Positions 19,500 through 44,596 of a DNA stretch of 64,000 nt are shown here, one piece after another (position 1 is the first letter of the stretch; every line of letters begins with the position of its first letter). The stretch lies in the NCBI RefSeq assembly GCF_003334355.1, contig NZ_QOWP01000017.1. One strand, written 5' to 3'. The DNA comes from Escherichia coli. GTDB lineage: Bacteria; Pseudomonadota; Gammaproteobacteria; Enterobacterales; Enterobacteriaceae. The notes beneath the pieces are model-generated. The model was not told the origin of the DNA and ran no database searches. It worked only from the letters and a program-made list of their open reading frames with translations. The position numbers were made by a program, and so were the translations under genes.

Positions 19500-19513
19500 A
19501 TTTCCCCTCTGAG

Positions 19514-19675: not shown

Positions 19676-19684
19676 CAGGGTTTA

Positions 19685-20279: not shown

Positions 20280-20334
20280 GTCATGGATTAGCGACGTCTG
20301 ATGACGTAATTTCTGCCTCGGAGGTATTTAAACA

Positions 20335-22403: not shown

Positions 22404-22411
22404 ACTCCGCA

Positions 22412-22505
22412 TTTGTAGGCAGGATAAGGCGTTTACGCCGCATCCGGCATTTGAGCAGGATGCCTGATGCGACGCTGATAGCGTCTTATCAGGCCTACAC
22501 TCCGG
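22412..22505. repeat. REP element pair
   Basis: gcctgatgcgacgctg...cgtcttatcaggcctac type palindromic units after cpxA. Confidence 0.7.
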
Positions 22506-22508
22506 GGG

Positions 22509-23183: not shown

Positions 23184-23331
23184 CTGTTCCCTCTCCACGA
23201 GAAATTTCCCCATTAGACCATATTTATTTTATGTCAGGCGTGCTGTTTTCGCGGTAAGTATCCAGGCAGGAACTCAATAGCAAACCGGACGAACGTTAGT
23301 TCATCCGGCTGTGGGGATTAAGGAAGCAGGT

Positions 23332-24315: not shown

Positions 24316-24574
24316 TTCCATCACCTGTCGGCATATTTTTAAGGGCTGATGCGTAATTCCTCAATGGAGCATCAGTGTTGATGGAAACGAAGATAGACAT
24401 TCATTTAATCAATAAAAGTGATCAAAACCACATCAATTGAAACACTGTTTTATTTTTATCGGATCATTGTTTTTATTTTGAAATTGATCACAAAAAAACC
24501 ACCGCCGTTGGCGATGGTTCATTTTTTAAGCTGATATGCGGCGTAAACGCCTCATTGCAGCAGGCGGCAAATGA

Positions 24575-25195
24575 TTATTTTTTCGCCGCGAAACGTGCCG
24601 CTGCTTCATCCCAGTTCACCACGTTCCAGAACTCTTTGATGTAGTCCGGACGGCGGTTCTGGAATTTCAGGTAGTAAGCATGTTCCCACACATCCAGGCC
24701 CAGAATCGGGAAGCCGGAAGCGCCAGAAATAGCTTCACCCATCAGCGGAGAATCCTGGTTAGCAGTAGAAACCACCGCCAGTTTATCGCCTTTCAGCACC
24801 AGCCATGCCCAGCCGGAACCAAAGCGGGAAGCTGCCGCTTTTTCAAATTCTGCTTTGAAGTTATCAACGGAGCCGAAGTCACGTTCGATAGCCGCTTTCA
24901 GGTCACCCTGCAGGGTGGTGCCTTTTTTCAGACCTTTCCAGAACAGGCTGTGGTTAGCGTGACCGCCAGCGTTGTTGCGCAGTACGGTTTTCTTGTCTGC
25001 TGGCAGCTGGTCCAGTTTGGTGATCAGCTCTTCAACCGGCAGGTTGGCAAATTCTGGCAGGCTTTCCAGCGCCGCGTTGGCGTTGTTTACGTAGGTCTGA
25101 TGGTGTTTGGTGTGGTGGATTTCCATGGTCTGCTCATCGAAGTGCGGTTCCAGGGCATCGTAAGCATACGGCAGGGATGGCAGGGTATAGCTCAT
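24575..25195 (-). CDS. sodA: Manganese superoxide dismutase SodA
   Basis: 206 aa [38 protein letters not shown]... Confidence 0.97.
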
Positions 25196-25479
25196 ATTCA
25201 TCTCCAGTATTGTCGGGCGGCCGATTGTTAATGCCGCGTAAGCAGTTGGTTCATTATAGTTAATTAAATGATATTGAAAATGATTATCAATGCCGTACTT
25301 TTCGTAAGGGTATGGTTTTGCAGGAAAATGCCCGAGATGTGAAGCAAATCACCCACTTAATGCCGTGATTGCCAGTAAATCGACAACGGCGGCAACAGGC
25401 GAAAGGTTAATCGACAGCACGATTTTTACACTCATCTCGTCGGAGATGTGAAGCGACGAAAAATGATGAGGATAAGAAG

Positions 25480-26514
25480 ATGAGTAACGCGATTACGATG
25501 GGGATATTTTGGCATTTGATCGGCGCGGCCAGTGCAGCCTGTTTTTACGCTCCGTTCAAAAAAGTAAAAAAATGGTCATGGGAAACCATGTGGTCAGTCG
25601 GTGGGATTGTTTCGTGGATTATTCTGCCGTGGGCCATCAGCGCCCTGTTACTACCGGATTTCTGGGCGTATTACAGCTCGTTTAGTCTCTCTACGCTGCT
25701 GCCTGTTTTTCTGTTCGGCGCTATGTGGGGGATCGGTAATATCAACTATGGCCTGACCATGCGTTATCTCGGCATGTCGATGGGAATTGGCATCGCCATT
25801 GGCATTACGTTGATTGTCGGTACGCTGATGACGCCAATTATCAACGGCAATTTCGATGTGCTGATTAACACCGAAGGCGGACGCATGACGTTGCTCGGCG
25901 TTCTGGTGGCGCTGATTGGCGTAGGGATTGTAACTCGCGCCGGGCAGTTGAAAGAGCGCAAGATGGGCATTAAAGCCGAAGAGTTCAATCTGAAAAAAGG
26001 GCTGGTGCTGGCGGTGATGTGCGGCATTTTCTCTGCCGGGATGTCCTTTGCGATGAACGCCGCAAAACCGATGCATGAAGCCGCTGCCGCACTTGGCGTC
26101 GATCCACTGTATGTCGCTCTGCCAAGCTATGTCATCATCATGGGCGGCGGCGCGATCATCAACCTCGGTTTCTGTTTTATTCGTCTGGCAAAAGTGAAGG
26201 ATTTGTCGCTAAAAGCCGACTTCTCGCTGGCAAAACCGCTGATCACTCACAATGTGTTACTCTCAGCACTGGGCGGGTTGATGTGGTACCTGCAATTCTT
26301 TTTCTATGCCTGGGGCCACGCCCGCATTCCGGCGCAATATGACTACATCAGTTGGATGCTGCATATGAGCTTCTATGTATTGTGCGGCGGTATCGTCGGG
26401 CTGGTGCTGAAAGAGTGGAACAATGCAGGACGCCGTCCGGTAACGGTGTTGAGCCTCGGTTGTGTGGTGATTATTGTCGCCGCTAACATCGTCGGCATCG
26501 GCATGGCGAATTAA
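25480..26514 (+). CDS. rhaT: L-rhamnose-proton symporter RhaT
   Basis: ORF track 344 aa, multi-TM; synteny with rhaRS. Confidence 0.95.
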
Positions 26515-27359
26515 TCTTTCTGCGAATTGAGATGACGCCACTGGCTGGGCGTCATCCCGGTTTCCCGGGTAAACACCACCGAAAAATAGTTACTATCTTC
26601 AAAGCCACATTCGGTCGAAATATCACTGATTAACAGGCGGCTATGCTGGAGAAGATATTGCGCATGACACACTCTGACCTGTCGCAGATATTGATTGATG
26701 GTCATTCCAGTCTGCTGGCGAAATTGCTGACGCAAAACGCGCTCACTGCACGATGCCTCATCACAAAATTTATCCAGCGCAAAGGGACTTTTCAGGCTAG
26801 CCGCCAGCCGGGTAATCAGCTTATCCAGCAACGTTTCGCTGGATGTTGGCGGCAACGAATCACTGGTGTAACGATGGCGATTCAGCAACATCACCAACTG
26901 CCCGAACAGCAACTCAGCCATTTCGTTAGCAAACGACACATGCTGACTACTTTCATGCTCAAGCTGACCGATAACCTGCCGCGCCTGCGCCATCCCCATG
27001 CTACCTAAGCGCCAGTGTGGTTGCCCTGCGCTGGCGTTAAATCCCGGAATCGCCCCCTGCCAGTCAAGATTCAGCTTCAGACGCTCCGGGCAATAAATAA
27101 TATTCTGCAAAACCAGATCGTTAACGGAAGCGTAGGAGTGTTTATCGTCAGCATGAATGTAAAAGAGATCGCCACGGGTAATGCGATAAGGGCGATCGTT
27201 GAGTACATGCAGGCCATTACCGCGCCAGACAATCACCAGCTCACAAAAATCATGTGTATGTTCAGCAAAGACATCTTGCGGATAACGGTCAGCCACAGCG
27301 ACTGCCTGCTGGTCGCTGGCAAAAAAATCATCTTTGAGAAGTTTTAACTGATGCGCCAC
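26511..27359 (-). CDS. rhaR: AraC-family activator RhaR
   Basis: GTG start at 27359 gives 282 aa (M)[37 protein letters not shown]... Confidence 0.9.
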
Positions 27360-27432
27360 CGTGGCTACCTCGGCCAGAGAACGAAGTTGATTATTCGCAA
27401 TATGGCGTACAAATACGTTGAGAAGATTCGCG

Positions 27433-28269
27433 TTATTGCAGAAAACCATCCCGTCCCTGACGAATATCACGCGGTGACCAGTTAAACTCTCGGCGAAAAA
27501 GCGTCGAAAAGTGGTTACTGTCGCTGAATCCACAGCGATAGGCGATGTCAGTAACGCTGGCCTCGCTGTGGCGTAGCAGATGTCGGGCTTTCATCAGTCG
27601 CAGGCGGTTCAGGTATCGCTGAGGCGTCAGTCCCGTTTGCTGCTTAAGCTGCCGATGTAGCGTACGCAGTGAAAGAGAAAATTGATCCGCCACGGCATCC
27701 CAATTCACCTCATCGGCAAAATGGTCCTCCAGCCAGGCCAGAAGCAAGTTGAGACGTGATGCGCTGTTTTCCAGGTTCTCCTGCAAACTGCTTTTACGCA
27801 GCAAGAGCAGTAATTGCATAAACAAGATCTCGCGACTGGCGGTCGAGGGTAAATCATTTTCCCCTTCCTGCTGTTCCATCTGTGCAACCAGCTGTCGCAC
27901 CTGCTGCAATACGCTGTGGTTAACGCGCCAGTGAGACGGATACTGCCCATCCAGCTCTTGTGGCAGCAACTGATTCAGCCCGGCGAGAAACTGAAATCGA
28001 TCCGGCGAGCGATATAGCACATTGGTCAGACACAGATTATCGGTATGTTCATACAGATGCCGATCATGGTCGCGCACAAAACAGACCGTGCCACCGGTGA
28101 TGGTATAGGGCTGCCCATTAAACACATGAATACCCGTGCCATGTTCGACAATCACAATTTCATGAAAATCATGATGATGTTCAGGAAAATCCGCCTGCGG
28201 GAGCCGGGGTTCTATCGCCACGGACGCGTTACCAGACGGAAAAAAATCCACACTATGTAATACGGTCAT
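27433..28269 (-). CDS. rhaS: AraC-family activator RhaS
   Basis: ORF track 278 aa [39 protein letters not shown]... Confidence 0.95.
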
Positions 28270-31282
<3,013 letters not shown>

Positions 31283-31289
31283 ACACTGC

Positions 31290-31520
31290 CGGATGCGGCG
31301 CGAGCGCCTTATCCGGCCTACGGGTCGGCAACAGTTGTAGGCCTGATAAGACGCGACAGCGTCGCATCAGGCATTGATTGCCGGATGCGGCACAAGTGCC
31401 TTATCCGGCCTACAGGTCGGCAATAGTTGTAGGCCTGATAAGACGCGACAGCGTCGCATCAGGCATTGATTGCCGGATGCGGCGCGAGCGCCTTATCCGG
31501 CCTACGGGTCGTGCATCCGA
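31290..31520. repeat. BIME/REP cluster with ~98-bp unit repeated about 2.5 times
   Basis: gccggatgcggcgcgagcgccttatccggcctacgggtcggcaacagttgtaggcctgataagacgcgacagcgtcgcatcaggcattgatt repeated with few substitutions. Confidence 0.85.
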
Positions 31521-31548
31521 CAACACCGAATTTACAGGAACACAGAAC

Positions 31549-32373
31549 ATGCAAAACATTACTCAGTCCTGGTTTGTCCAGGGAATGATCAAAGCCACCA
31601 CCGACGCCTGGCTGAAAGGCTGGGATGAGCGCAACGGCGGCAACCTGACGCTACGCCTGGATGACGCCGATATCGCACCATATCACGACAATTTCCACCA
31701 ACAACCGCGCTATATCCCGCTCAGCCAGCCCATGCCTTTACTGGCAAATACACCGTTTATTGTCACCGGCTCGGGCAAATTCTTCCGTAACGTCCAGCTT
31801 GATCCTGCGGCTAACTTAGGCATCGTAAAAGTCGACAGCGACGGCGCGGGCTACCACATTCTTTGGGGGTTAACCAACGAAGCCGTCCCCACTTCCGAAC
31901 TTCCGGCTCACTTCCTTTCCCACTGCGAGCGCATTAAAGCCACCAACGGCAAAGATCGGGTGATCATGCACTGCCACGCCACCAACCTGATCGCCCTCAC
32001 CTATGTACTTGAAAACGACACCGCGGTCTTCACTCGCCAACTGTGGGAAGGCAGCACCGAGTGTCTGGTGGTATTCCCGGATGGCGTTGGCATTTTGCCG
32101 TGGATGGTGCCCGGCACGGACGAAATCGGCCAGGCGACCGCACAAGAGATGCAAAAACATTCGCTGGTGTTGTGGCCCTTCCACGGCGTCTTCGGCAGCG
32201 GACCGACGCTGGATGAAACCTTCGGTTTAATCGACACCGCAGAAAAATCAGCACAAGTATTAGTGAAGGTTTATTCGATGGGCGGCATGAAACAGACCAT
32301 CAGCCGTGAAGAGTTGATAGCGCTCGGCAAGCGTTTCGGCGTTACGCCACTCGCCAGTGCGCTGGCGCTGTAA
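31549..32373 (+). CDS. rhaD: Rhamnulose-1-phosphate aldolase RhaD
   Basis: Internal ATG at 31549 gives 274 aa [39 protein letters not shown]...; upstream part of track ORF is REP sequence. Confidence 0.95.
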
Positions 32374-32382
32374 GGAGCAAAC

Positions 32383-32697
32383 ATGATCCGCAAAGCCTTT
32401 GTCATGCAGGTAAACCCCGACGCCCACGAAGAGTATCAGCGTCGGCATAATCCCATCTGGCCAGAACTGGAAGCAGTGCTGAAATCTCACGGTGCGCATA
32501 ACTACGCCATCTATCTCGACAAAGCGCGTAATCTGCTGTTTGCCATGGTAGAGATTGAATCTGAAGAACGCTGGAATGCGGTTGCCAGCACTGATGTTTG
32601 CCAACGTTGGTGGAAATATATGACCGATGTTATGCCCGCTAACCCGGATAACAGCCCGGTGAGTCGCGAGCTGCAAGAAGTGTTTTACCTGCCGTAA
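32383..32697 (+). CDS. rhaM: L-rhamnose mutarotase RhaM
   Basis: ORF track 104 aa [37 protein letters not shown]... Confidence 0.95.
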
Positions 32698-32997
32698 TTG
32701 CCCAATGTGCCAGAGATGCCTCCGGCACAATATTTTAAATTTCGATTTGAAAAATTAAACATATTACATCTCCCGGTAAGTTATATTTCCCTGATACATT
32801 GTGAGTAAATCACAAAAATAATGAATAACCCATTAATGATTCATGTGGTTTATTTAAATAACCATTATGTGCATTACTCCGCAAATCTGACCTTTCACTC
32901 TGTCTCAAATTGTCATTGTTTACCGACATATCGCCTCTCATCACTTAATCGCTCCACCATTACAATTGATTAAAATATATTTTATGGAGTCCGATTA

Positions 32998-33444
32998 ATG
33001 GCAGCTCTTACTGCAAGCTGTATTGACCTGAATATTCAGGGCAATGGCGCTTATTCCGTTCTGAAGCAGTTGGCGACAATAGCGTTACAAAACGGTTTTA
33101 TCACCGACTCACACCAGTTCCTGCAAACCCTGCTGCTGCGCGAAAAAATGCACTCTACTGGATTTGGTTCCGGTGTCGCCGTGCCGCACGGTAAAAGCGC
33201 CTGCGTTAAACAACCGTTCGTATTATTCGCCCGCAAAGCGCAGGCTATTGACTGGAAAGCCAGCGATGGCGAAGACGTCAATTGCTGGATCTGCCTCGGC
33301 GTGCCGCAAAGCGGCGAAGAGGATCAGGTCAAAATCATCGGCACACTGTGTCGCAAAATTATTCACAAGGAATTTATTCATCAACTGCAACAGGGCGATA
33401 CCGACCAGGTGCTTGCCTTGTTAAATCAAACCCTCAGCTCATAA
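32998..33444 (+). CDS. frvA: PTS fructose-like EIIA component FrvA
   Basis: ORF track 148 aa; synteny with frvBXR. Confidence 0.9.
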   Translation: MAALTASCIDLNIQGNGAYSVLKQLATIALQNGFITDSHQFLQTLLLREKMHSTGFGSGVAVPHGKSACVKQPFVLFARKAQAIDWKASDGEDVNCWICLGVPQSGEEDQVKIIGTLCRKIIHKEFIHQLQQGDTDQVLALLNQTLSS

Positions 33445-33454
33445 GGAAGTGGCG

Positions 33455-34906
33455 ATGGAGTCATCCTTACGTATTGTCGCGATCACCAACTGCCCCGCCG
33501 GGATCGCTCACACCTACATGGTGGCGGAAGCCCTGGAACAGAAAGCCCGTTCTCTCGGTCATACCATAAAAGTGGAAACTCAAGGGTCCAGTGGCGTTGA
33601 AAACCGCTTATCCAGCGAAGAGATTGCCGCTGCCGATTACGTCATTCTCGCTACCGGGCGTGGCCTGAGCGGTGATGATCGCGCGCGGTTTGCCGGGAAG
33701 AAAGTTTATGAGATTGCCATCTCCCAGGCGTTGAAAAATATCGACCAGATTTTCAGCGAATTACCGACAAACTCGCAGCTTTTTGCCGCAGATAGCGGCG
33801 TGAAGCTTGGCAAACAGGAAGTGCAAAGCGGTAGCGTGATGAGCCACCTGATGGCGGGCGTCTCTGCGGCGCTGCCGTTTGTCATCGGCGGTGGTATCCT
33901 GGTGGCGCTTGCCAACATGCTGGTGCAGTTCGGTTTGCCGTATACCGATATGTCGAAAGGCGCGCCGTCGTTTACCTGGGTAGTTGAATCCATCGGTTAC
34001 CTTGGCTTCACCTTTATGATCCCCATCATGGGCGCTTATATTGCCTCGTCGATTGCCGATAAACCGGCTTTCGCTCCGGCGTTTCTGGTTTGCTATCTGG
34101 CGAACGACAAAGCGCTGCTCGGCACCCAGTCGGGTGCGGGATTCCTCGGCGCGGTGGTGCTGGGGCTGGCGATTGGCTATTTCGTCTTCTGGTTCCGCAA
34201 AGTGCGCCTTGGCAAAGCATTACAACCGCTGCTCGGTTCAATGCTGATCCCGTTCGTTACTCTGCTGGTTTTCGGCGTGCTCACTTACTACGTTATCGGG
34301 CCGGTGATGTCCGACCTCATGGGCGGGCTGCTCCACTTCCTGAATACCATTCCTCCATCAATGAAGTTTGCGGCAGCGTTTCTGGTCGGTGCGATGCTGG
34401 CGTTCGATATGGGCGGCCCCATCAATAAAACCGCCTGGTTCTTCTGCTTCTCACTGCTGGAAAAACACATTTATGACTGGTACGCCATCGTCGGCGTTGT
34501 CGCGCTGATGCCGCCCGTCGCGGCGGGTCTTGCGACGTTCATTGCGCCCAAACTGTTTACCCGACAGGAAAAAGAGGCTGCCAGTAGTGCCATTGTGGTC
34601 GGTGCCACAGTCGCAACCGAACCGGCTATTCCTTACGCTCTGGCAGCTCCGTTGCCGATGATTACCGCCAATACGCTGGCGGGCGGCATTACCGGCGTGC
34701 TGGTGATCGCTTTCGGAATCAAACGTCTGGCACCTGGTTTGGGTATCTTTGACCCGCTGATCGGCCTGATGTCGCCGGTGGGTTCGTTTTATCTGGTGCT
34801 GGCGATTGGCCTCGCGCTGAACATTTCATTCATTATCGTCCTGAAAGGATTGTGGTTACGCCGCAAAGCGAAAGCCGCGCAACAGGAGCTTGTCCATGAA
34901 CATTGA
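33455..34906 (+). CDS. frvB: PTS fructose-like EIIBC component FrvB
   Basis: 483 aa from MESSLRIVAITNCPAGIAHTYMVAEALEQKARSLG... Confidence 0.92.
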   Translation: MESSLRIVAITNCPAGIAHTYMVAEALEQKARSLGHTIKVETQGSSGVENRLSSEEIAAADYVILATGRGLSGDDRARFAGKKVYEIAISQALKNIDQIFSELPTNSQLFAADSGVKLGKQEVQSGSVMSHLMAGVSAALPFVIGGGILVALANMLVQFGLPYTDMSKGAPSFTWVVESIGYLGFTFMIPIMGAYIASSIADKPAFAPAFLVCYLANDKALLGTQSGAGFLGAVVLGLAIGYFVFWFRKVRLGKALQPLLGSMLIPFVTLLVFGVLTYYVIGPVMSDLMGGLLHFLNTIPPSMKFAAAFLVGAMLAFDMGGPINKTAWFFCFSLLEKHIYDWYAIVGVVALMPPVAAGLATFIAPKLFTRQEKEAASSAIVVGATVATEPAIPYALAAPLPMITANTLAGGITGVLVIAFGIKRLAPGLGIFDPLIGLMSPVGSFYLVLAIGLALNISFIIVLKGLWLRRKAKAAQQELVHEH

Positions 34907-35966
34907 GTTACTGCAACAGTTGTGCGAAGCCAGCGCCGTCAGCGGCGATGAACAGGAAGTTCGCGACATTCTGATAAACACGCTGGAACCTTGCGTGAAT
35001 GAAATCACCTTCGATGGTCTGGGCAGCTTTGTTGCCCGTAAGGGGAATAAAGGTCCAAAAGTTGCCGTTGTCGGACATATGGATGAAGTCGGCTTTATGG
35101 TCACCCACATCGACGAGAGCGGTTTTCTGCGTTTTACCACCATTGGCGGCTGGTGGAATCAGTCGATGCTCAACCACCGGGTAACCATACGCACACACAA
35201 GGGAGTGAAAATCCCTGGTGTGATTGGTTCCGTCGCGCCTCATGCGTTAACGGAAAAGCAAAAGCAACAACCGCTGTCATTTGATGAGATGTTCATTGAT
35301 ATTGGCGCGAACAGTCGCGAAGAGGTGGAAAAGCGCGGCGTGGAAATTGGTAATTTTATTAGCCCGGAAGCCAATTTTGCCTGCTGGGGCGAAGATAAAG
35401 TGGTCGGCAAGGCGTTGGATAACCGCATCGGCTGCGCAATGATGGCTGAACTATTGCAGACGGTGAATAATCCCGAAATTACGCTGTATGGCGTTGGCAG
35501 TGTGGAAGAAGAAGTTGGGCTACGCGGGGCGCAAACCTCGGCGGAACACATTAAACCGGACGTCGTGATCGTGTTGGATACCGCCGTAGCGGGCGATGTT
35601 CCGGGCATTGATAACATTAAATACCCGCTGAAACTGGGCCAGGGGCCGGGGCTGATGCTGTTTGACAAGCGCTACTTCCCCAACCAGAAACTGGTAGCAG
35701 CGTTAAAAAGCTGTGCCGCACATAACGATTTACCGCTGCAATTTTCCACCATGAAAACCGGTGCGACGGATGGCGGGCGCTACAACGTGATGGGCGGCGG
35801 GCGTCCGGTTGTCGCGCTGTGTCTGCCAACTCGTTATCTGCACGCCAACAGCGGTATGATTTCAAAAGCCGATTACGAAGCTCTGCTCACGCTGATACGG
35901 GGTTTTCTGACGACCTTAACTGCGGAGAAAGTCAACGCGTTTAGCCAGTTCCGTCAGGTGGATTAA
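34896..35966 (+). CDS. frvX: M42-family peptidase-like protein FrvX
   Basis: Track ORF 358 aa (MSMNIELLQQLCEASAVSGDEQEV); start 34890 or 34896. Confidence 0.9.
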   Translation: MNIELLQQLCEASAVSGDEQEVRDILINTLEPCVNEITFDGLGSFVARKGNKGPKVAVVGHMDEVGFMVTHIDESGFLRFTTIGGWWNQSMLNHRVTIRTHKGVKIPGVIGSVAPHALTEKQKQQPLSFDEMFIDIGANSREEVEKRGVEIGNFISPEANFACWGEDKVVGKALDNRIGCAMMAELLQTVNNPEITLYGVGSVEEEVGLRGAQTSAEHIKPDVVIVLDTAVAGDVPGIDNIKYPLKLGQGPGLMLFDKRYFPNQKLVAALKSCAAHNDLPLQFSTMKTGATDGGRYNVMGGGRPVVALCLPTRYLHANSGMISKADYEALLTLIRGFLTTLTAEKVNAFSQFRQVD

Positions 35967-37714
35967 TGCTAAACGAACGCCAGTTAAAGATTGTCGATCT
36001 GCTGGAGCAACAGCCGCGCACGCCTGGCGAGCTGGCGCAACAGACTGGCGTTTCAGGCAGGACCATCCTGCGTGATATTGACTATCTCAACTTCACCCTT
36101 AACGGCAAAGCCCGCATTTTCGCCAGTGGCAGTGCGGGCTATCAGCTGGAAATCTTCGAGCGCCGCAGCTTTTTTCAGTTGCTGCAAAAGCACGATAACG
36201 ACGATCGGCTGCTGGCGCTGTTATTACTGAATACTTTCACTCCCCGAGCGCAACTCGCCTCGGCGCTTAATTTGCCAGAAACGTGGGTAGCAGAGCGTCT
36301 GCCCCGGTTAAAACAGCGTTATGAACGCACTTGTTGCCTGGCCAGCCGCCCTGGTTTGGGCCATTTCATTGATGAGACAGAAGAGAAACGCGTTATCTTG
36401 CTGGCGAACTTGCTGCGCAAAGATCCGTTTTTAATTCCGCTGGCGGGCATAACACGAGACAACCTTCAGCATTTATCCACGGCCTGCGACAACCAACACC
36501 GCTGGCCGCTCATGCAGGGTGATTATCTCTCCAGCCTGATTCTGGCGATTTACGCCCTGCGTAATCAACTGACCGATGAGTGGCCGCAATATCCCGGTGA
36601 CGAGATAAAACAAATCGTTGAACATAGCGGTCTGTTTCTTGGTGATAACGCTGTAAGAACCCTGACGGGTTTGATAGAGAAACAGCATCAGCAAGCGCAG
36701 GTAATTTCAGCCGATAATGTGCAGGGGTTGCTGCAAAGGGTGCCGGGCATCGCGTCATTGAATATTATTGATGCGCAGCTGGTTGAGAATATTACCGGGC
36801 ATTTATTACGTTGCCTTGCCGCACCAGTGTGGATTGCTGAGCACCGCCAGAGCAGCATGAATAACCTGAAAGCCGCCTGGCCTGCGGCCTTTGATATGAG
36901 TCTGCACTTTATTACGCTACTGCGTGAACAGCTCGATATTCCCCTTTTCGACAGCGATCTGATCGGTTTGTATTTTGCCTGTGCGCTGGAGCGGCATCAA
37001 AACGAACGCCAGCCGATCATTTTGCTCTCGGACCAGAACGCGATTGCCACTATTAATCAGCTCGCCATTGAGCGCGATGTTTTAAATTGTCGGGTAATTA
37101 TTGCCCGTAGCTTAAGCGAACTTGTTGCCATTCGCGAAGAGATTGAGCCGTTATTGATCATTAACAACAGCCATTATTTACTGGATGACGCGGTAAATAA
37201 TTACATCACCGTAAAAAATATCATTACGGCTGCCGGTATCGAACAAATAAAACATTTTCTGGCGACGGCATTTATTCGCCAACAGCCGGAGCGTTTTTTC
37301 TCTGCCCCCGGAAGTTTTCATTATTCGAATGTACGCGGTGAAAGCTGGCAACATATTACCCGGCAAATTTGTGCGCAATTAGTCGCACAACACCATATTA
37401 CCGCCGATGAAGCACAACGCATCATCGCCCGCGAAGGCGAAGGTGAAAACCTGATTGTTAATCGCCTCGCCATCCCACATTGCTGGAGCGAACAGGAGCG
37501 ACGTTTTCGTGGATTTTTTATTACCCTCGCCCAACCAGTTGAGGTGAATAACGAAGTCATTAACCATGTCTTGATCGCCTGCGCCGCCGCCGATGCGCGT
37601 CATGAGCTAAAAATATTTAGCTATCTGGCAAGCATATTGTGTCAGCATCCGGCGGAGATTATTGCCGGGTTAACAGGATATGAGGCATTTATGGAGTTAC
37701 TTCACAAGGGGTGA
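35966..37714 (+). CDS. frvR: frv operon regulator FrvR
   Basis: ORF track 582 aa. Confidence 0.9.
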   Translation: MLNERQLKIVDLLEQQPRTPGELAQQTGVSGRTILRDIDYLNFTLNGKARIFASGSAGYQLEIFERRSFFQLLQKHDNDDRLLALLLLNTFTPRAQLASALNLPETWVAERLPRLKQRYERTCCLASRPGLGHFIDETEEKRVILLANLLRKDPFLIPLAGITRDNLQHLSTACDNQHRWPLMQGDYLSSLILAIYALRNQLTDEWPQYPGDEIKQIVEHSGLFLGDNAVRTLTGLIEKQHQQAQVISADNVQGLLQRVPGIASLNIIDAQLVENITGHLLRCLAAPVWIAEHRQSSMNNLKAAWPAAFDMSLHFITLLREQLDIPLFDSDLIGLYFACALERHQNERQPIILLSDQNAIATINQLAIERDVLNCRVIIARSLSELVAIREEIEPLLIINNSHYLLDDAVNNYITVKNIITAAGIEQIKHFLATAFIRQQPERFFSAPGSFHYSNVRGESWQHITRQICAQLVAQHHITADEAQRIIAREGEGENLIVNRLAIPHCWSEQERRFRGFFITLAQPVEVNNEVINHVLIACAAADARHELKIFSYLASILCQHPAEIIAGLTGYEAFMELLHKG

Positions 37715-37763
37715 ACTGTGTCGGATGCGCCGCATCCGACACTGCATTTATCATCAAAAACGT

Positions 37764-38819
37764 TTAACGCAGGCTATTATAGTCATCAACCATTTCGTTG
37801 TACTCGCGTAATGCTCTCGGGAAAGAGTCTTCGACCATCCAGCTTGAGTTTGCGTCCTGAAGTTGCTCTTTATCCCAGTCAGAGTACGGGACTTTATCTC
37901 TGATGCGGCGAACGTATTTTTTAGCCTCGAGTTGATACTGGCCTGCCGAATTAATAAACGAGAAATTCATGCCGCCTTTATCCGCTTCTTTGACCTGCGC
38001 CACTAGCGTTTCCAGTTCAGACACTTTCTTCATTGCCGCTTCTGCATCAAACTTATCTTGCGATATCAGGTTATTAATTTGTTTCGCTGAAATCATGACT
38101 GCCAGAGAGTAGTAGTGGAATGTTTTCCCTTCTCTTTCTTCAATATTTTTCAGTTCCGCAAGCTGACGCTTATCATTAATTTCCTGAATCGCCGCATGAT
38201 AAGATTCGGCTACAGGTTCAAAGGCTTCCAGATTTTTTAAGAATGTCTGGTGCAGCGTTTTCCCTTTCGCAAACGCATCGTCTTTATAATTTTCCTGGGT
38301 GTAATATTTATCCATTTCGTTAATGGTATTACCCAACGCCACGGCAGCATCGATATAACTCACCGCCACGCCATCAATTGGTTGCAGCGCAGGCGTTAAC
38401 GCCACAGCACTTTTTACGCCTTTTTCACACTCAGCGAGGTTGGATTCACTAATGCCGTAGATGCCATAAACAGTACGCTCTTCACCGGTAGGCCCCTGTT
38501 TAAAATCTTTCAGCCAGTCAGCATAACGCGCCAGACTGCGCTGTACCGGGATCTGTAACTTGTTGTAGCACTTGATATAGACATCCATTTTTTCGTCGAA
38601 AACCGCTTGTTCATCGACCACCGGTTGCGCAGGTGTTTCAGGTTTAGCTTCTGCTTTTGCAACGGGAGCTTCAGTAGGTTTCGCTTCAGGAGCTGGTGCG
38701 GCAGGTTGACTATTGGCAGGCGGGAGCGTTTCTGTTTCGGCTTTTTTATCATCACAACCCGTCAGACCGAGGGACATGATGGCGACTATAATAGCGGAAG
38801 ATAATAAATTCCTTTTCAT
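37764..38819 (-). CDS. yiiG: Lipoprotein YiiG
   Basis: ORF track 351 aa with signal peptide and lipobox MKRNLLSSAIIVAIMSLGLTGCDD. Confidence 0.9.
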   Translation of the reverse strand: MKRNLLSSAIIVAIMSLGLTGCDDKKAETETLPPANSQPAAPAPEAKPTEAPVAKAEAKPETPAQPVVDEQAVFDEKMDVYIKCYNKLQIPVQRSLARYADWLKDFKQGPTGEERTVYGIYGISESNLAECEKGVKSAVALTPALQPIDGVAVSYIDAAVALGNTINEMDKYYTQENYKDDAFAKGKTLHQTFLKNLEAFEPVAESYHAAIQEINDKRQLAELKNIEEREGKTFHYYSLAVMISAKQINNLISQDKFDAEAAMKKVSELETLVAQVKEADKGGMNFSFINSAGQYQLEAKKYVRRIRDKVPYSDWDKEQLQDANSSWMVEDSFPRALREYNEMVDDYNSLR

Positions 38820-38930
38820 TTAATTGCCTTATAAATATATAGATAAGAGAGTGAACATAATAAATGAAAAAAGAAAACGCCACTACACGCATTTTGTTTA
38901 TAAATAAAATAATAAAATTCACGAAATGAA

Positions 38931-38970
38931 TAAGTCCTGCAATTTAATATATTTCGCAGGACTTATTTTA
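38931..38970 (-). terminator. Hairpin terminator downstream of fdhD
   Basis: taagtcctgc/gcaggactta 10-bp stem with U-rich flank on both strands, 5 nt past fdhD stop. Confidence 0.5.
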
Positions 38971-38971
38971 A

Positions 38972-39805
38972 TTAATTGCTCAAACGCTGCGGATGGGTAT
39001 AAACCGTTGCCCGACCCGGTTTACAAAAACCTACCAGTGTCAGATTACAGCGCTCAGCCACTTCTACAGCAAGCGTGGTCGCGGCAGACACCGCAAACAA
39101 AATCTCTACGCCGCACATCGCCGACTTTTGCACCATTTCATAACTGGCACGACTGGAAACCAGTACCGCACCTTGCTGCCAGCTTTCCCCTTCTTGTGAC
39201 CGGCGGCCTAACAGTTTGTCCAGCGCCACATGGCGACCCACGTCTTCATGCCCGCCGACCAGTTCGCCAGATGGCAACATCCAGGCAGCGGCGTGAGTAC
39301 AACCAGTCAGTTGCCCCACTGGCTGAAAATCGTTGAGATGACGTAATGCATCATCCAGTTTGTTGAGATCAAACGTCTGGGTGAACGGTAGCGGCTGCAC
39401 CGGTTTTCCGATGTCATTAAGTTGCTCCACGCCGCATACGCCACAGCCCGTACGTCCCGCCAGCGCCCGGCGGCGCTCCTTCAACCCCATAAAGCGGCGG
39501 CTGGAAAGCTCAATTTGTACTTCAAGACCATTACAGGAAGGAACGACATCCATGCCGAAGATATCGCGCGGACTTTCGATAATCCCCTCGGAAAGCGAAA
39601 AACCGAGCGCAAAGTACTCAAGGTCTTTGGGCGACGCCATCATCACCACATGCGAAATGCCGTTGTAGACCAGCGCAACGGGAACTTCTTCCGCGACCTC
39701 ATCTAACCGTGGGTGTTGTAAATCATCACGCCGCCATAACTCAATTTGACGAACACCTGTGATATTTGTCACATTTTCGATTTCTTTTCGCTGTGTTTTT
39801 TTCAC
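38972..39805 (-). CDS. fdhD: Formate dehydrogenase accessory sulfurtransferase FdhD
   Basis: ORF track 277 aa [40 protein letters not shown]... Confidence 0.95.
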
Positions 39806-39998
39806 TTTCTCTTAACCAGATAAGAACACACACACCAACATTATGGTATTCTGTTACAAACCCTTCCTGGATGGAGGGAAATTGAGCCAATTCTGGACCT
39901 TTGCGGCCCCTTCCGCAAAGAAAAATAACTCCCACTCCCTGCACACGCAGCAAGCGAATGTAAATGGGACGTGACAATGTCGAAACAAGGAGCAATCC

Positions 39999-42900
39999 AT
40001 GCAGGTCAGCAGAAGGCAGTTCTTTAAGATCTGCGCTGGCGGTATGGCAGGCACCACGGCAGCGGCACTGGGTTTTGCACCCAGCGTAGCACTCGCGGAA
40101 ACCCGGCAGTATAAACTGCTGCGCACCCGCGAAACCCGTAATACCTGCACCTATTGTTCCGTAGGCTGTGGGCTGTTGATGTACAGCCTCGGTGACGGAG
40201 CAAAAAACGCCAAAGCATCTATCTTCCATATCGAAGGCGATCCGGATCACCCGGTCAACCGCGGTGCACTTTGTCCGAAAGGCGCTGGCCTGGTGGATTT
40301 CATCCACTCCGAAAGCCGTCTGAAGTTTCCGGAATACCGTGCGCCAGGTTCTGATAAATGGCAGCAAATCAGTTGGGAAGAGGCGTTTGATCGCATCGCC
40401 AAACTGATGAAAGAAGACCGCGATGCTAACTACATTGCGCAAAACGCCGAAGGCGTGACTGTTAACCGCTGGCTCTCCACCGGGATGCTGTGTGCTTCCG
40501 CGTCGAGTAACGAAACCGGCTATTTAACGCAAAAATTCTCCCGCGCGCTGGGTATGCTCGCGGTCGACAACCAGGCGCGTGTCTGACACGGACCAACGGT
40601 AGCAAGTCTTGCTCCAACATTTGGTCGCGGTGCGATGACCAACCACTGGGTCGACATCAAGAACGCCAACCTCGTCGTGGTGATGGGCGGTAACGCCGCT
40701 GAAGCTCACCCGGTCGGGTTCCGCTGGGCGATGGAAGCCAAAATTCACAACGGCGCGAAGCTGATTGTGATCGATCCTCGCTTTACGCGTACGGCGGCGG
40801 TAGCTGACTACTATGCCCCTATTCGTTCCGGTACTGACATTGCTTTCCTGTCAGGCGTATTGCTGTACCTGCTGAACAATGAAAAATTCAACCGCGAATA
40901 CACCGAAGCCTATACCAACGCCAGCCTGATCGTGCGTGAGGATTACGGCTTTGAAGATGGCCTGTTCACCGGCTACGACGCGGAAAAACGCAAGTACGAT
41001 AAATCCTCCTGGACTTATGAACTGGACGAAAACGGCTTCGCCAAACGCGATACCACGCTGCAACATCCGCGCTGCGTGTGGAACTTGCTGAAACAGCACG
41101 TTTCCCGCTACACGCCAGATGTGGTTGAAAACATCTGTGGTACGCCAAAAGACGCGTTCCTGAAAGTCTGCGAATACATCGCAGAAACCAGTGCTCACGA
41201 TAAAACTGCCTCGTTCCTGTATGCCCTCGGCTGGACGCAACACTCCGTTGGTGCGCAAAACATTCGTACGATGGCGATGATCCAGCTGCTGCTCGGCAAT
41301 ATGGGGATGGCAGGCGGCGGCGTTAACGCCCTGCGCGGTCACTCCAATATTCAGGGGCTGACGGACCTGGGGCTGCTGTCGCAGAGCCTGCCAGGTTACA
41401 TGACGCTGCCAAGCGAGAAGCAGACCGATCTGCAAACCTACCTTACCGCCAACACGCCAAAACCGCTGCTGGAAGGCCAGGTAAACTACTGGGGCAACTA
41501 CCCGAAATTCTTCGTCTCTATGATGAAGGCCTTCTTTGGTGATAAAGCGACGGCGGAAAATAGCTGGGGCTTTGACTGGTTGCCGAAGTGGGATAAAGGC
41601 TACGACGTCCTGCAATACTTCGAGATGATGAAAGAGGGCAAGGTCAATGGCTATATCTGCCAGGGCTTTAACCCTGTTGCCTCATTCCCGAACAAAAACA
41701 AAGTGATCGGTTGTCTGTCGAAACTGAAGTTCCTCGTCACCATCGACCCACTGAACACTGAAACCTCTAACTTCTGGCAGAACCACGGTGAGCTGAACGA
41801 AGTTGACTCGTCGAAGATCCAGACCGAAGTGTTCCGTCTGCCATCGACCTGCTTCGCGGAAGAGAACGGTTCTATCGTTAACTCAGGTCGCTGGTTACAG
41901 TGGCACTGGAAAGGTGCGGACGCCCCGGGGATTGCGCTGACTGACGGCGAGATCCTCTCCGGTATCTTCCTGCGCTTGCGCAAGATGTATGCCGAACAGG
42001 GTGGCGCGAACCCGGACCAGGTGCTGAACATGACATGGAACTACGCCATTCCGCATGAGCCATCTTCAGAAGAAGTGGCGATGGAGAGCAACGGTAAGGC
42101 GCTGGCCGATATTACCGATCCGGCAACCGGTGCGGTTATCGTCAAGAAAGGCCAACAACTTAGTTCGTTCGCCCAATTGCGCGATGACGGTACAACCTCC
42201 TGTGGCTGCTGGATTTTCGCCGGTAGCTGGACGCCGGAAGGCAACCAGATGGCACGCCGTGATAACGCCGATCCGTCTGGCCTCGGTAACACGCTGGGCT
42301 GGGCATGGGCATGGCCGCTTAACCGCCGCATTCTGTATAACCGCGCCTCCGCAGATCCGCAGGGTAACCCGTGGGATCCGAAGCGTCAGTTGCTGAAATG
42401 GGACGGCACTAAGTGGACCGGCTGGGATATTCCGGACTACAGCGCAGCGCCTCCGGGTAGCGGCGTCGGGCCGTTTATCATGCAGCAGGAAGGCATGGGG
42501 CGTCTGTTTGCCCTCGATAAGATGGCGGAAGGTCCGTTCCCGGAACACTACGAGCCGTTTGAAACGCCGCTGGGAACTAACCCGCTGCATCCAAACGTTA
42601 TCTCGAACCCGGCTGCACGTATCTTTAAAGACGACGCCGAAGCATTGGGTAAAGCCGATAAGTTCCCGTATGTCGGAACCACCTATCGTCTGACCGAGCA
42701 CTTCCACTACTGGACCAAACACGCGCTGTTGAACGCGATTTTGCAGCCAGAGCAGTTTGTGGAAATCGGGGAGTCGCTGGCGAATAAACTTGGCATTGCC
42801 CAGGGCGATACCGTGAAAGTCTCCTCCAACCGTGGCTATATCAAAGCCAAAGCGGTGGTGACCAAACGTATTCGCACGCTGAAAGCGAACGGCAAAGATA

Positions 42901-43049
42901 TCGATACCATCGGTATTCCGATTCACTGGGGCTATGAAGGCGTAGCTAAAAAAGGCTTTATTGCCAATACTTTAACGCCATTCGTTGGTGATGCGAACAC
43001 GCAGACGCCGGAGTTTAAGTCCTTCCTTGTGAATGTGGAAAAGGTGTAA
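39999..43049 (+). CDS. fdoG: Formate dehydrogenase-O catalytic subunit FdoG (selenoprotein; UGA at 40584..40586 read as Sec)
   Basis: Track ORFs 39999..40586 (195 aa, Tat signal SRRQFFK) and 40635..43049 (804 aa) are in the same frame, separated only by TGA; 1016 aa read through; aaggag RBS at 39987..39992. Confidence 0.95.
40587..40630 (+). promoter_or_regulatory. SECIS stem-loop for Sec insertion
   Basis: cacggaccaacggtagcaagtcttgctccaacatttggtcg directly 3-prime of UGA, similar to fdhF/fdnG SECIS as recalled. Confidence 0.75.
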
Positions 43050-43061
43050 CGGAGACGACAT

Positions 43062-43964
43062 ATGGCTTATCAATCTCAAGATATCATTCGTCGTTCCGCG
43101 ACTAACGGTCTGACCCCCGCGCCTCAGGCGCGGGACTTCCAGGAAGAAGTGGCGAAACTCATCGACGTTACCACCTGTATCGGCTGTAAAGCCTGTCAGG
43201 TGGCGTGTTCAGAGTGGAACGACATTCGCGATACCGTCGGCAATAACATTGGGGTGTACGACAACCCCAATGATTTAAGCGCCAAATCGTGGACGGTAAT
43301 GCGCTTCTCGGAAGTGGAGCAGAACGACAAACTGGAATGGCTGATCCGCAAAGACGGCTGTATGCACTGTTCCGATCCAGGCTGCCTGAAAGCGTGCCCG
43401 GCGGAAGGTGCAATTATTCAGTATGCCAACGGTATCGTCGACTTCCAGTCCGAGCAGTGCATTGGCTGCGGTTATTGCATTGCGGGCTGTCCGTTCGACA
43501 TTCCGCGCCTCAACCCGGAAGACAACCGCGTCTACAAATGTACGCTGTGCGTTGACCGCGTGGTGGTTGGGCAAGAACCAGCCTGCGTGAAGACCTGCCC
43601 AACGGGCGCGATTCACTTCGGTACGAAAGAGTCGATGAAAACGCTGGCGAGCGAGCGCGTTGCTGAGCTGAAAACCCGCGGTTACGACAATGCGGGTCTG
43701 TACGATCCGGCAGGCGTCGGTGGTACACACGTCATGTACGTGCTGCACCATGCTGACAAGCCAAATCTGTATCATGGCTTGCCGGAGAACCCGGAAATCA
43801 GCGAAACCGTGAAATTCTGGAAAGGCATCTGGAAACCGCTCGCGGCTGTTGGCTTTGCGGCTACCTTTGCGGCCAGTATCTTCCACTACGTGGGTGTCGG
43901 TCCGAACCGTGCGGATGAGGAAGAGAATAATCTGCACGAAGAGAAAGACGAGGAGCGCAAATGA
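43062..43964 (+). CDS. fdoH: Formate dehydrogenase-O Fe-S subunit FdoH
   Basis: ORF track 300 aa with several CxxCxxCxxxCP ferredoxin motifs. Confidence 0.95.
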
Positions 43965-44596
43965 AACGACGTGACACCATCGTGCGCTACACCGCGCCGG
44001 AACGTATCAACCACTGGATCACCGCCTTCTGCTTCATCCTGGCGGCGGTGAGCGGGCTGGGCTTTTTGTTCCCGTCCTTCAACTGGTTGATGCAAATCAT
44101 GGGCACACCGCAGCTGGCGCGAATTCTGCACCCGTTTGTCGGCGTGGTTATGTTTGCCTCGTTCATCATCATGTTTTTCCGTTACTGGCATCACAACCTA
44201 ATCAATCGGGATGATATCTTTTGGGCGAAGAATATTCGTAAGATCGTCGTCAACGAGGAAGTAGGTGACACCGGGCGTTATAACTTCGGTCAGAAATGCG
44301 TTTTCTGGGCGGCGATTATTTTCCTGGTTCTGCTGCTGGTGAGCGGCGTGATTATCTGGCGTCCTTATTTTGCGCCTGCTTTCTCAATCCCGGTGATCCG
44401 ATTCGCGTTAATGCTGCATTCATTTGCCGCAGTGGCGTTAATTGTGGTTATCATGGTGCATATCTACGCCGCCCTTTGGGTGAAAGGCACGATTACCGCC
44501 ATGGTGGAAGGATGGGTTACCAGCGCCTGGGCGAAGAAACATCACCCGCGCTGGTACCGTGAGGTCCGCAAGACAACGGAAAAGAAAGCTGAATGA
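43961..44596 (+). CDS. fdoI: Formate dehydrogenase-O cytochrome b556 subunit FdoI
   Basis: ORF track 211 aa, multi-TM. Confidence 0.95.

What the first reader, a model, noticed from the sequence alone, without database searches (positions are those of the whole stretch)
39999..43049. fdoG is split by the ORF track at an in-frame UGA that is a selenocysteine codon
Seen: the two track ORFs are in the same frame and separated only by TGA at 40584..40586, followed by a stem-loop-capable sequence. Established: formate dehydrogenase catalytic subunits contain selenocysteine decoded via a SECIS element. This is expected biology, but worth recording so the gene is not called as two fragments or a pseudogene.
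Basis: partly seen in the sequence, partly recalled or inferred. Interest (0 to 1): 0.2.

Follow-up and report, generated by a model that had tools for sequence, protein, structure and literature searches.

The report
Selenocysteine codon in E. coli fdoG
The apparent stop codon in the middle of this E. coli formate dehydrogenase gene (fdoG) is the well-known selenocysteine codon, followed by the RNA hairpin that directs its decoding, so the gene is intact and the finding is ordinary.

Summary
ORFs 39999..40586 and 40635..43049 are in one frame and are interrupted only by TGA at 40584..40586 (codon 196). The read-through product is 1016 aa.

- **Gene identity:** The gene is 100% nucleotide-identical to E. 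coli K-12 fdoG (b3894). It sits in the canonical fdhD<>fdoG-fdoH-fdoI-fdhE arrangement, and RefSeq annotates it as a single CDS.
- **SECIS match:** Immediately 3' of the UGA lies a hairpin that matches Rfam SECIS_3 at 84.3 bits (gathering score 63). It has the apical stem-loop at nt 15-32, bulged U17 and loop G23/U24.
- **Covariation:** Across 58 distinct homologous sequences from other bacteria, the apical helix is 99.3% paired. Two of its pairs show compensatory changes and none is broken.
- **Synonymous sites:** In 31 Enterobacterales loci, codon identity is 98.5% in the hairpin against 55.5% in the flanks.
- **Structure:** The UGA aligns with the non-standard residue 196 in the solved FdnG structure.
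- **Literature:** FdoG is an established selenoprotein.

This is already known biology and of low interest. Its practical value is for annotation only: do not call two fragments or a pseudogene. PGAP labels this gene 'fdnG', but it is fdoG.

The parts
39999..43049 (+). fdoG, catalytic (alpha) subunit of formate dehydrogenase-O. One CDS of 1016 codons plus TAA, with Sec at codon 196.
   Evidence: Single-frame translation. 100% nucleotide identity to K-12 b3894. RefSeq annotates a single CDS at the same coordinates. TIGR01553 matches continuously across the UGA, profile positions 1-194 then 196-1009.
39987..39992 (+). Shine-Dalgarno sequence AAGGAG, 6 nt upstream of the fdoG ATG
   Evidence: Read directly from the sequence. 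No comparable site precedes the ATG at 40635.
39999..40097 (+). Twin-arginine (Tat) signal peptide region, MQVSRRQFFK...ALA, residues 1-33
   Evidence: Read from the translation. The motif S-R-R-x-F-F-K is recognised from established knowledge and was not tested with a predictor.
40584..40586 (+). In-frame UGA, the selenocysteine codon 196
   Evidence: It aligns with the non-standard residue X196 of the solved FdnG structure 1kqf_A and with X in 1h0h_A. fdnG has UGA at the same codon, 196; in fdhF it is codon 140.
40581..40639 (+). SECIS element, full-length match to Rfam RF01989 SECIS_3
   Evidence: 84.3 bits against a gathering score of 63, E = 1.6e-19, model positions 1-59 of 59.
40589..40629 (+). 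Complete hairpin (nt 6-46 counted from the U of UGA): lower stem plus apical stem-loop
   Evidence: MFE structure at -13.8 kcal/mol. The lower stem uses a register shifted by one relative to the Rfam consensus.
40598..40615 (+). Apical stem-loop, the inferred SelB-binding mini-helix (nt 15-32). Bulged U17 = 40600; loop G23 = 40606, U24 = 40607, C25 = 40608.
   Evidence: Fold results. U17, G23 and U24 are invariant in 58 distinct sequences. The helix is 99.3% paired, with compensatory changes at pairs 18-30 and 21-27. Determinants as defined in PMC8659212.
40581..40651 (+). 71-nt block identical between E. coli fdoG and its paralog fdnG. Synonymous sites here are frozen across Enterobacterales.
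   Evidence: This is the longest identical run in a 74.9%-identical gene pair. In 31 Enterobacterales loci, codon identity is 98.5% for codons 197-211 and 93.5% for 212-217, against 55.5% in the flanks.
43062..43964 (+). fdoH, the iron-sulfur beta subunit (context)
   Evidence: TIGR01582, 478.7 bits. Annotation.
43961..44596 (+). fdoI, the cytochrome b556 gamma subunit (context; distinguishes FDH-O from FDH-N)
   Evidence: NF007924 scores 453.3 bits (cutoff 341). The FDH-N gamma model NF007558 scores 243.6 bits, below its cutoff of 339.
44593..45522 (+). fdhE, formate dehydrogenase accessory protein (context)
   Evidence: NF002925, 604.5 bits.
38972..39805 (-). fdhD, accessory sulfurtransferase, divergently transcribed (context)
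   Evidence: TIGR00129, 340 bits. Annotation.

Best explanation
The window carries the intact E. coli fdoG gene. Its codon 196 is UGA and is decoded as selenocysteine. The mRNA immediately 3' of the UGA, still inside the coding sequence, folds into a SECIS hairpin. The apical stem-loop (nt 15-32 after the U of UGA, with bulged U17 and loop G23/U24) is bound by the C-terminal domain of the specialised elongation factor SelB. SelB carries Sec-tRNA(Sec), whose anticodon is UCA. With the hairpin tethered about 11 nt from the codon, SelB delivers the tRNA to the A site in competition with release factor 2. Sec196 is then inserted and translation continues to give the 1016-aa Tat-exported molybdo-selenoprotein. 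Shown here: the frame, the UGA, the hairpin, the covariance-model match, covariation, frozen synonymous sites, alignment of the UGA with the Sec position of solved homologues, and gene identity. Inferred from established knowledge and literature, not tested here: SelB binding, selenium-dependent read-through, and catalytic use of Sec196 as a Mo ligand.
For: One frame with a single internal TGA. 100% nucleotide identity to K-12 fdoG b3894, and a single RefSeq CDS. SECIS_3 at 84.3 bits against a gathering score of 63. Hairpin with U17, G23 and U24 at the positions published for the fdhF minimal SECIS. The 47 nt from the UGA through the hairpin are identical in fdnG, and the architecture matches fdhF. 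The apical helix is 99.3% paired in 58 distinct sequences; pair 18-30 is GC 46, AU 6, GU 6, and pair 21-27 is AU 38, CG 18, GC 2, with none broken. Sliding the 3' partner by 1-3 columns drops pairing to 26-58%. RNAalifold on 113 sequences finds the same helix independently. Codon identity is 98.5% in the hairpin against 55.5% in the flanks across 31 Enterobacterales loci, even though the hairpin uses non-preferred codons such as GGA, CCA, GTA, AGT and CTT. The 77-nt stretch occurs in 5426 of 5426 complete E. coli genomes, and the best copy is identical to the window in 5322 of 5434 matching records. The UGA aligns with the non-standard residue 196 of 1kqf_A. selA, selB and selC are annotated in K-12. 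The literature states that FdoG is one of three E. coli selenoproteins and that a selC mutant loses Fdh-N/O activity (PMC3160892; PMC4009273).
Against: Nothing substantive. Folding energy alone is only mildly better than shuffles (z = -1.6 to -2.1, and z = +0.4 with wider flanks). The E. coli lower stem fits the Rfam consensus register imperfectly, forming 5 of 7 pairs, and prefers a register shifted by one, forming 6 of 6. The Rfam seed alignment may contain this very sequence, so the covariance-model score is not fully independent evidence. The Sec machinery genes are not in the window, so they could be checked only in the K-12 reference.
Confidence: 0.98

Rival explanations
1. The TGA is a genuine stop. 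The locus is then a pseudogene, or two separate genes encoding a 195-aa N-terminal fragment and an 804-aa C-terminal protein starting at ATG 40635.
For: A mechanical ORF call gives exactly this picture. UGA is a standard stop in table 11, and published work on fdhF reports that a fraction of ribosomes do terminate at such UGAs (PMC4513850).
Against: The family profile TIGR01553 runs continuously across the stop, positions 1-194 then 196-1009. The solved FdnG is one chain with a non-standard residue at this position. Starting at ATG 40635 would delete 16 strictly conserved residues (HGPTVASLAPTFGRGA), and no Shine-Dalgarno sequence precedes it. The TGA and its context are conserved in 5426 of 5426 E. 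coli genomes and in the 119 of 120 scanned loci from many phyla whose frame continues as a formate dehydrogenase. A pseudogene would not keep synonymous sites frozen.
Confidence: 0.01
2. The UGA is read through by a mechanism unrelated to selenocysteine, for example near-cognate tRNA-Trp or Cys suppression. The downstream hairpin would then act only as a pausing or stimulatory structure.
For: RNA structures 3' of stop codons can stimulate read-through in other systems (established knowledge). Nothing computed here measures which amino acid is inserted.
Against: The hairpin has the specific SelB determinants U17, G23 and U24 at the exact published distances, and these are invariant in 58 distinct sequences. 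It matches a SECIS covariance model well above threshold. The aligned residue in solved homologues is selenocysteine. A selC mutant loses Fdh-N/O activity (PMC3160892).
Confidence: 0.01
3. The 71-nt block identical between fdoG and fdnG reflects recent gene conversion between the paralogs rather than selection on an RNA structure.
For: The block is the longest identical run in a gene pair that is 74.9% identical overall. Both paralogs carry the same sequence in several other enterobacterial genomes.
Against: The same sequence is kept in about 14 genera from Providencia and Yersinia to Escherichia, with sharp boundaries at codons 195/196 and 217/218. Purifying selection explains this more simply than repeated conversion. 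In non-enterobacterial genomes with two copies (Stutzerimonas L081/L082, Pseudomonas L036/L037, Alcaligenaceae L067/L068) the two SECIS sequences differ but keep the pairing. Compensatory changes in wider taxa point to structural constraint. Conversion could still contribute; it would not change what the element is.
Confidence: 0.05

Closest known systems
E. coli K-12 fdoG (b3894, NP_418330.1), alpha subunit of formate dehydrogenase-O
   Same: Identical at all 3051 nucleotides, with the same UGA at codon 196 and the same neighbours fdhD, fdoH, fdoI and fdhE.
   Different: Nothing within the gene. The surrounding window is from another strain: it is 99.1-99.9% identical to K-12 over 19615..63999 and carries a P2-family prophage at 1..~19.6 kb that K-12 lacks.
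E. coli fdnG SECIS (formate dehydrogenase-N; solved structure 1kqf)
   Same: UGA at codon 196. The 71 nt from 3 nt before the UGA to 67 nt after it are identical, and so is the predicted hairpin. The proteins are 77% identical (782 of 1016).
   Different: This is a paralogous gene at another locus (fdnGHI, no adjacent fdhE or fdhD). The genes are 74.9% identical at nucleotide level outside the block.
E. coli fdhF SECIS, the experimentally dissected reference element (minimal 17-nt stem-loop 11 nt from the UGA)
   Same: The hairpin starts right after the UGA. G15-G16, bulged U17, and G23-U24-C25 in the loop sit at the same distances from the UGA (definition in PMC8659212).
   Different: The apical loop is GGUC (4 nt) in fdhF. 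In fdoG it is GUC closed by a possible A22-U26 pair, so the 3' arm ends at nt 32 instead of 31. The stem sequences and encoded amino acids differ. fdoG matches Rfam SECIS_3 rather than another SECIS model (SECIS_2 scores only 28.1 bits against a gathering score of 70). Which Rfam SECIS model fdhF itself matches was not tested.
Rfam RF01989 SECIS_3 consensus (proteobacterial FDH-N/O-type SECIS)
   Same: Full-length match at 84.3 bits. The apical helix, the bulged U and the GUC loop are identical to the consensus.
   Different: In E. coli and other Enterobacterales the lower stem pairs best in a register shifted by one, characterised by A9, U42 and C45, with 6 of 6 pairs formed. In the consensus register, characterised by C9, C42 and U45, it forms only 5 of 7.

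Membership tests
Bacterial SECIS element (SelB-dependent, intragenic; Rfam SECIS_3) | In-frame UGA inside a coding sequence, at the position occupied by Sec or Cys in homologues | tested here: met
   TGA at 40584..40586 is codon 196. It aligns with the non-standard residue 196 of 1kqf_A, X in 1h0h_A, and Cys in the engineered or variant chain 9qm0_A.
Bacterial SECIS element (SelB-dependent, intragenic; Rfam SECIS_3) | Hairpin immediately 3' of the UGA, with the apical stem-loop about 11 nt from the codon (nt 15-31/32) | tested here: met
   The MFE fold places the apical helix at nt 15-22 paired with 26-32 (40598..40615). Definition taken from PMC8659212.
Bacterial SECIS element (SelB-dependent, intragenic; Rfam SECIS_3) | Bulged U17, and G23 and U24 in the apical loop (SelB contact bases) | tested here: met
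   U17 = 40600 is unpaired between G16 and A18. G23 = 40606 and U24 = 40607 lie in the loop. All three are invariant in 58 distinct homologous sequences.
Bacterial SECIS element (SelB-dependent, intragenic; Rfam SECIS_3) | Covariance-model score at or above the family's gathering threshold | tested here: met
   84.3 bits against a gathering score of 63, E = 1.6e-19, full length. Caveat: the seed alignment may include this sequence.
Bacterial SECIS element (SelB-dependent, intragenic; Rfam SECIS_3) | Helix maintained by compensatory substitutions in other species | tested here: met
   The apical helix is 99.3% paired. Pairs 18-30 and 21-27 change on both sides in 6 and 20 of 58 sequences, with no broken cell. 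None of 500 shuffles reaches the observed covariation score, and slid controls pair at 26-58%. RNAalifold agrees.
Bacterial SECIS element (SelB-dependent, intragenic; Rfam SECIS_3) | Sec-decoding machinery (selA, selB, selC tRNA-Sec, selD) present in the same genome | tested here: met
   None of these genes lies in the window; ARAGORN found no tRNA gene in the window. selA, selB and selC are annotated in K-12 MG1655, whose fdoG is identical to the window's. selD was not looked up. The window's own strain cannot be checked.
Bacterial SECIS element (SelB-dependent, intragenic; Rfam SECIS_3) | SelB binding and selenium-, selB- and selC-dependent read-through of the UGA | not testable with these tools
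   Literature only. FdoG is listed as a selenopolypeptide, and a selC mutant lacks Fdh-N/O activity (PMC3160892, PMC4009273).
FdoG (formate dehydrogenase-O alpha subunit), as opposed to FdnG | Sequence identity to the reference fdoG | tested here: met
   3051 of 3051 nt identical to b3894. By contrast it is 74.9% identical in nucleotides and 77% in amino acids to fdnG b1474.
FdoG (formate dehydrogenase-O alpha subunit), as opposed to FdnG | Operon context fdoGHI-fdhE with divergent fdhD | tested here: met
   NCBIfam matches for FdoH, FdoI, FdhE and FdhD. The FdoI model NF007924 scores 453 bits, above its cutoff, while the FDH-N gamma model falls below its cutoff. Annotation.
FdoG (formate dehydrogenase-O alpha subunit), as opposed to FdnG | Molybdopterin formate dehydrogenase alpha family profile above its curated cutoff | tested here: met
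   TIGR01553 scores 1278.8 bits for the C-terminal part alone (cutoff 814.2), plus 271.4 bits for the N-terminal part, with contiguous profile coordinates.
FdoG (formate dehydrogenase-O alpha subunit), as opposed to FdnG | Formate-oxidising activity of the FdoGHI complex | not testable with these tools
   Literature only (PMC3160892).

The most novel reading that the evidence does not exclude
In Enterobacterales, both paralogs across about 14 genera freeze synonymous sites in a block that extends about 20 nt beyond the 3' end of the SelB-binding hairpin. Codons 212-217 (40632..40649) show 93.5% codon identity against 55.5% in the flanks, with a sharp boundary at codon 217/218. The lower stem also uses a register shifted from the Rfam consensus. 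This could mean the functional recoding signal of fdoG and fdnG is larger than the described SECIS, for example an outer helix or a spacing or unwinding element that tunes Sec insertion against termination. The evidence does not exclude this. However, RNAalifold's outer pairs (-13..-10 with +63..+66, and -3..-1 with +54..+56) show no convincing covariation, and the codons concerned are all preferred E. coli codons in a strictly conserved peptide, which may suffice to explain the conservation.
Probability: 0.1. Interest if true: 0.3.

Novelty: already known. Interest (0 to 1): 0.08.

Why it matters
The value is for annotation quality only. A naive ORF caller splits fdoG at the Sec codon into a 195-aa and an 804-aa fragment, or flags a pseudogene. 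Recognising the UGA plus SECIS keeps the gene whole. There is also a naming trap. PGAP labels this gene 'fdnG / formate dehydrogenase-N subunit alpha' in RefSeq E. coli genomes because the family model does not separate the paralogs, whereas synteny and identity show it is fdoG. The cross-species data gathered here give a clean textbook illustration of dual coding: an RNA structure inside a coding sequence freezes synonymous sites and forces wobble positions to covary. They add nothing new to the biology of selenocysteine decoding.

Tried and rejected
1. **Thermodynamics as evidence.** The hairpin is only marginally more stable than shuffles (z = -1.6 to -2.1), and with wider flanks it is not (z = +0.38). 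I did not rely on it.
2. **Rfam consensus register for the E. coli lower stem.** It leaves A5-C45 and A9-G41 unpaired. A register shifted by one fits E. coli better, forming 6 of 6 pairs. Both registers are reported.
3. **Assumed collinearity of the whole window with K-12.** This failed. Only 19615..63999 aligns, and the first ~19.6 kb is a prophage.
4. **An extended outer helix to explain conservation beyond the hairpin.** RNAalifold proposes -13..-10 with +63..+66 and -3..-1 with +54..+56. The only variable pair (Gln192 wobble with His216 wobble) is GC 63, GU 18, AU 15, AC 16, which is not convincing. Rejected as unsupported.
5. **Gene conversion as the cause of the fdoG/fdnG identity.** Judged less likely than order-wide purifying selection.
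6. **One pattern hit was a chance match.** L056 (Streptomyces) has a frame that continues into unrelated sequence, so it was excluded.
It was repeated with Cys at that position.
8. **Literature searches for a paper dissecting the fdoG SECIS specifically** found none in the held library. The determinants are cited from a review of the fdhF element.
Full report
**Observation.** The + strand ORFs 39999..40586 and 40635..43049 are in the same frame. Translating 39999..43049 in one frame gives a 1016-codon product with a single internal stop, TGA at 40584..40586 (codon 196), and a terminal TAA. The second ORF is listed from 40635 only because that is the first ATG (Met213). The frame is open from 40587 onward, and the 16 residues in between (HGPTVASLAPTFGRGA) belong to a strongly conserved motif.

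**Gene identity.**
- The 3051 nt are identical at every position to E. coli K-12 MG1655 fdoG (b3894).
- A 6-kb query around the gene is found in all 5426 complete E. coli genomes.
- RefSeq annotates one CDS at exactly these coordinates.
- The neighbours are fdoH (43062..43964), fdoI (43961..44596) and fdhE (44593..45522), with fdhD divergent at 38972..39805. All score above the NCBIfam cut-offs.
- The gamma subunit matches the FDH-O model NF007924 at 453 bits, above its cut-off. It matches the FDH-N gamma model at only 243.6 bits, below that model's cut-off.
- The alpha-subunit family profile TIGR01553 aligns to profile positions 1-194 before the UGA and 196-1009 after it, so exactly one profile position is occupied by the UGA.
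- PGAP names the gene 'fdnG / formate dehydrogenase-N subunit alpha'. This is a naming artefact of that shared model. K-12's curated annotation calls it fdoG.

**The element after the UGA.**
- Rfam's SECIS_3 model (RF01989) matches 40581..40639 over its full length at 84.3 bits, against a gathering score of 63 (E = 1.6e-19). It is the only SECIS hit in the 64-kb window.
- Counting from the U of UGA as 1, the minimum-free-energy fold pairs nt 6-13 with 38-46 (lower stem) and nt 15-22 with 26-32 (apical stem). U17 is bulged and the loop is G23-U24-C25.
- In window coordinates the apical element is 40598..40615, with U17 = 40600, G23 = 40606 and U24 = 40607.
- These are the determinants described for the dissected fdhF element: a 17-nt upper stem-loop 11 nt from the UGA, bulged U17, loop G23 and U24, with U17 and G23 as SelB contacts (PMC8659212, citing Liu et al. 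1998 and Fourmy et al. 2002).
- K-12 fdhF has the same bases at the same distances. Its loop is GGUC, and its apical helix has one potential base pair fewer than that of fdoG.
- Folding energy alone is weak evidence (z about -2 for the hairpin, and no signal with wider flanks). I relied on comparative data instead.

**Comparative evidence.**
- *Paralog comparison.* E. coli fdoG and fdnG are 74.9% identical in nucleotides and 77% in amino acids. Their longest identical run, 71 nt at 40581..40651, covers exactly the UGA and the SECIS.
- *Cross-species sample.* One plain-pattern scan of the species-representative genome collection used the peptide-constrained pattern GTNTGACAYGGNCCNACNGTNGC. One, a Streptomyces locus, was a chance match and was dropped.
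- *Apical helix.* The remaining loci give 58 distinct 50-nt sequences. The apical helix is paired in 99.3% of cells. Pair 18-30 is GC 46, AU 6, GU 6, and pair 21-27 is AU 38, CG 18, GC 2, with no unpaired case. These are wobble positions of Val201 with Ala205 and of Ala202 with Leu204, so synonymous sites covary to keep the RNA helix.
- *Controls.* None of 500 column shuffles reaches the observed covariation score. Sliding the 3' partners by 1-3 columns drops pairing from 91-92% to 26-58%.
- *Independent prediction.* RNAalifold on 113 sequences of 126 nt recovers the same apical helix without being told.
- *Invariant bases.* U17, G23 and U24 are invariant.
- *Synonymous sites.* In 31 Enterobacterales loci not selected for SECIS identity (both paralogs, about 14 genera), identical codons make up 98.5% of same-amino-acid codons in codons 197-211. 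The figure is 93.5% in codons 212-217 and 55.5% in the flanks, with sharp boundaries. This holds even though the hairpin uses codons that are not preferred in E. coli.
- *Within E. coli.* The 77-nt stretch occurs in 5426 of 5426 genomes, with a median of two places per genome (fdoG and fdnG). The best copy is identical to the window in 5322 of 5434 matching records.

**A small structural difference from the Rfam consensus.** Most sequences (C9, C42, U45) pair the lower stem in the Rfam register. The enterobacterial type (A9, U42, C45, including this window) forms 6 of 6 pairs in a register shifted by one, but only 5 of 7 in the consensus register. Published work on fdhF, as summarised in PMC8659212, indicates that the lower stem modulates read-through but is not required for it. 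This is a variant of detail, not of kind.

**Protein-level evidence.**
- The UGA aligns with the non-standard residue at position 196 of the solved E. coli FdnG structure (1kqf_A) and with the corresponding non-standard residue of the Desulfovibrio gigas enzyme (1h0h_A). The adjacent His197 is conserved.
- The N-terminus carries a twin-arginine motif (SRRQFFK) and the CxxCxxxC cluster motif at C50, C53 and C57, read directly.
- A good Shine-Dalgarno sequence (AAGGAG, 39987..39992) precedes the true start. None precedes the ATG at 40635.

**Mechanism.** On established knowledge, SelB-GTP carrying Sec-tRNA(Sec) binds the apical stem-loop through its C-terminal winged-helix domains. It delivers the tRNA to the UGA in the A site, in competition with RF2 (PMC4605307, PMC4513850). 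selA, selB and selC are annotated in K-12. They are not in the window, where no tRNA gene was found. The literature states that E. coli has exactly three selenopolypeptides, FdnG, FdoG and FdhF, and that a selC mutant loses the Fdh-N/O activity band (PMC3160892, PMC4009273). SelB binding and selenium dependence were not, and cannot be, tested with these tools.

**Rivals.**
- *Genuine stop or pseudogene.* Excluded for practical purposes by the continuous profile alignment, the solved single-chain homologue, universal conservation and frozen synonymous sites.
- *Sec-independent read-through.* Contradicted by the specific SelB determinants and the selC phenotype.
- *Gene conversion as the cause of the fdoG/fdnG identity.* Less economical than order-wide purifying selection. 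In non-enterobacterial genomes with two copies, the two SECIS sequences differ while keeping the pairs.

**Verdict.** This is a textbook selenocysteine recoding site in a gene identical to the K-12 reference, so it is already known and of low interest. The only open point is why conservation extends about 20 nt past the hairpin in Enterobacterales. Codon preference in an invariant peptide may explain it, and the outer helices proposed by RNAalifold lack support.

Noticed in passing
window 1..~19614: A P2-family prophage (tail, baseplate, lysis, capsid, terminase, portal, replication endonuclease, Cox, and a tyrosine integrase at about 18.5-19.5 kb) sits directly next to cpxP. K-12 MG1655 lacks it; the K-12 alignment resumes at K-12 4106390, just after cpxQ. 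At least 80% of the 1..20500 query (the prophage plus about 0.9 kb of flanking cpxP-cpxR) is present in one place in 678 of 5426 E. coli genomes. The best match is strain EC31, at 99.3% identity.
   Followed up: partly
window 39999..43049 (annotation in RefSeq records, e.g. NZ_CP020368.1): PGAP names this gene 'fdnG: formate dehydrogenase-N subunit alpha' in the RefSeq E. coli records examined (all 8 records listed), although synteny and identity show it is fdoG. The TIGR01553 equivalog model does not separate the two paralogs.
   Followed up: yes
window 39792..40028 (+): A sub-threshold match to Rfam RF02778, the FdoG-1 5' UTR thermometer (36.4 bits against a gathering score of 50, E = 2.4e-6). 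It spans the fdhD-fdoG intergenic region and the fdoG start. It may be plain sequence homology of the leader to the family's seed sequences. No test of temperature-dependent structure was made.
   Followed up: no
window 40581..40651 and L002 (K-12 fdnG): The fdoG and fdnG SECIS regions are identical over 71 nt in a 74.9%-identical gene pair. The same sequence is kept in both paralogs across about 14 enterobacterial genera. Conservation continues about 20 nt beyond the hairpin (codons 212-217), with a sharp drop at codon 218.
   Followed up: partly
window 40589..40629: The lower stem of the enterobacterial SECIS pairs in a register shifted by one relative to the Rfam SECIS_3 consensus. The correlated bases are A9, U42 and C45, against C9, C42 and U45 in most other taxa.
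   Followed up: yes
window 22418..22495 (+), 31340..31410 (-), 31432..31502 (-); weaker at 45771..45807: REP-type repeats match Rfam naRNA4 above threshold (77-79 bits). The 31287..31515 array aligns to K-12 in several overlapping registers, which suggests a difference in tandem REP copy number between strains.
   Followed up: no
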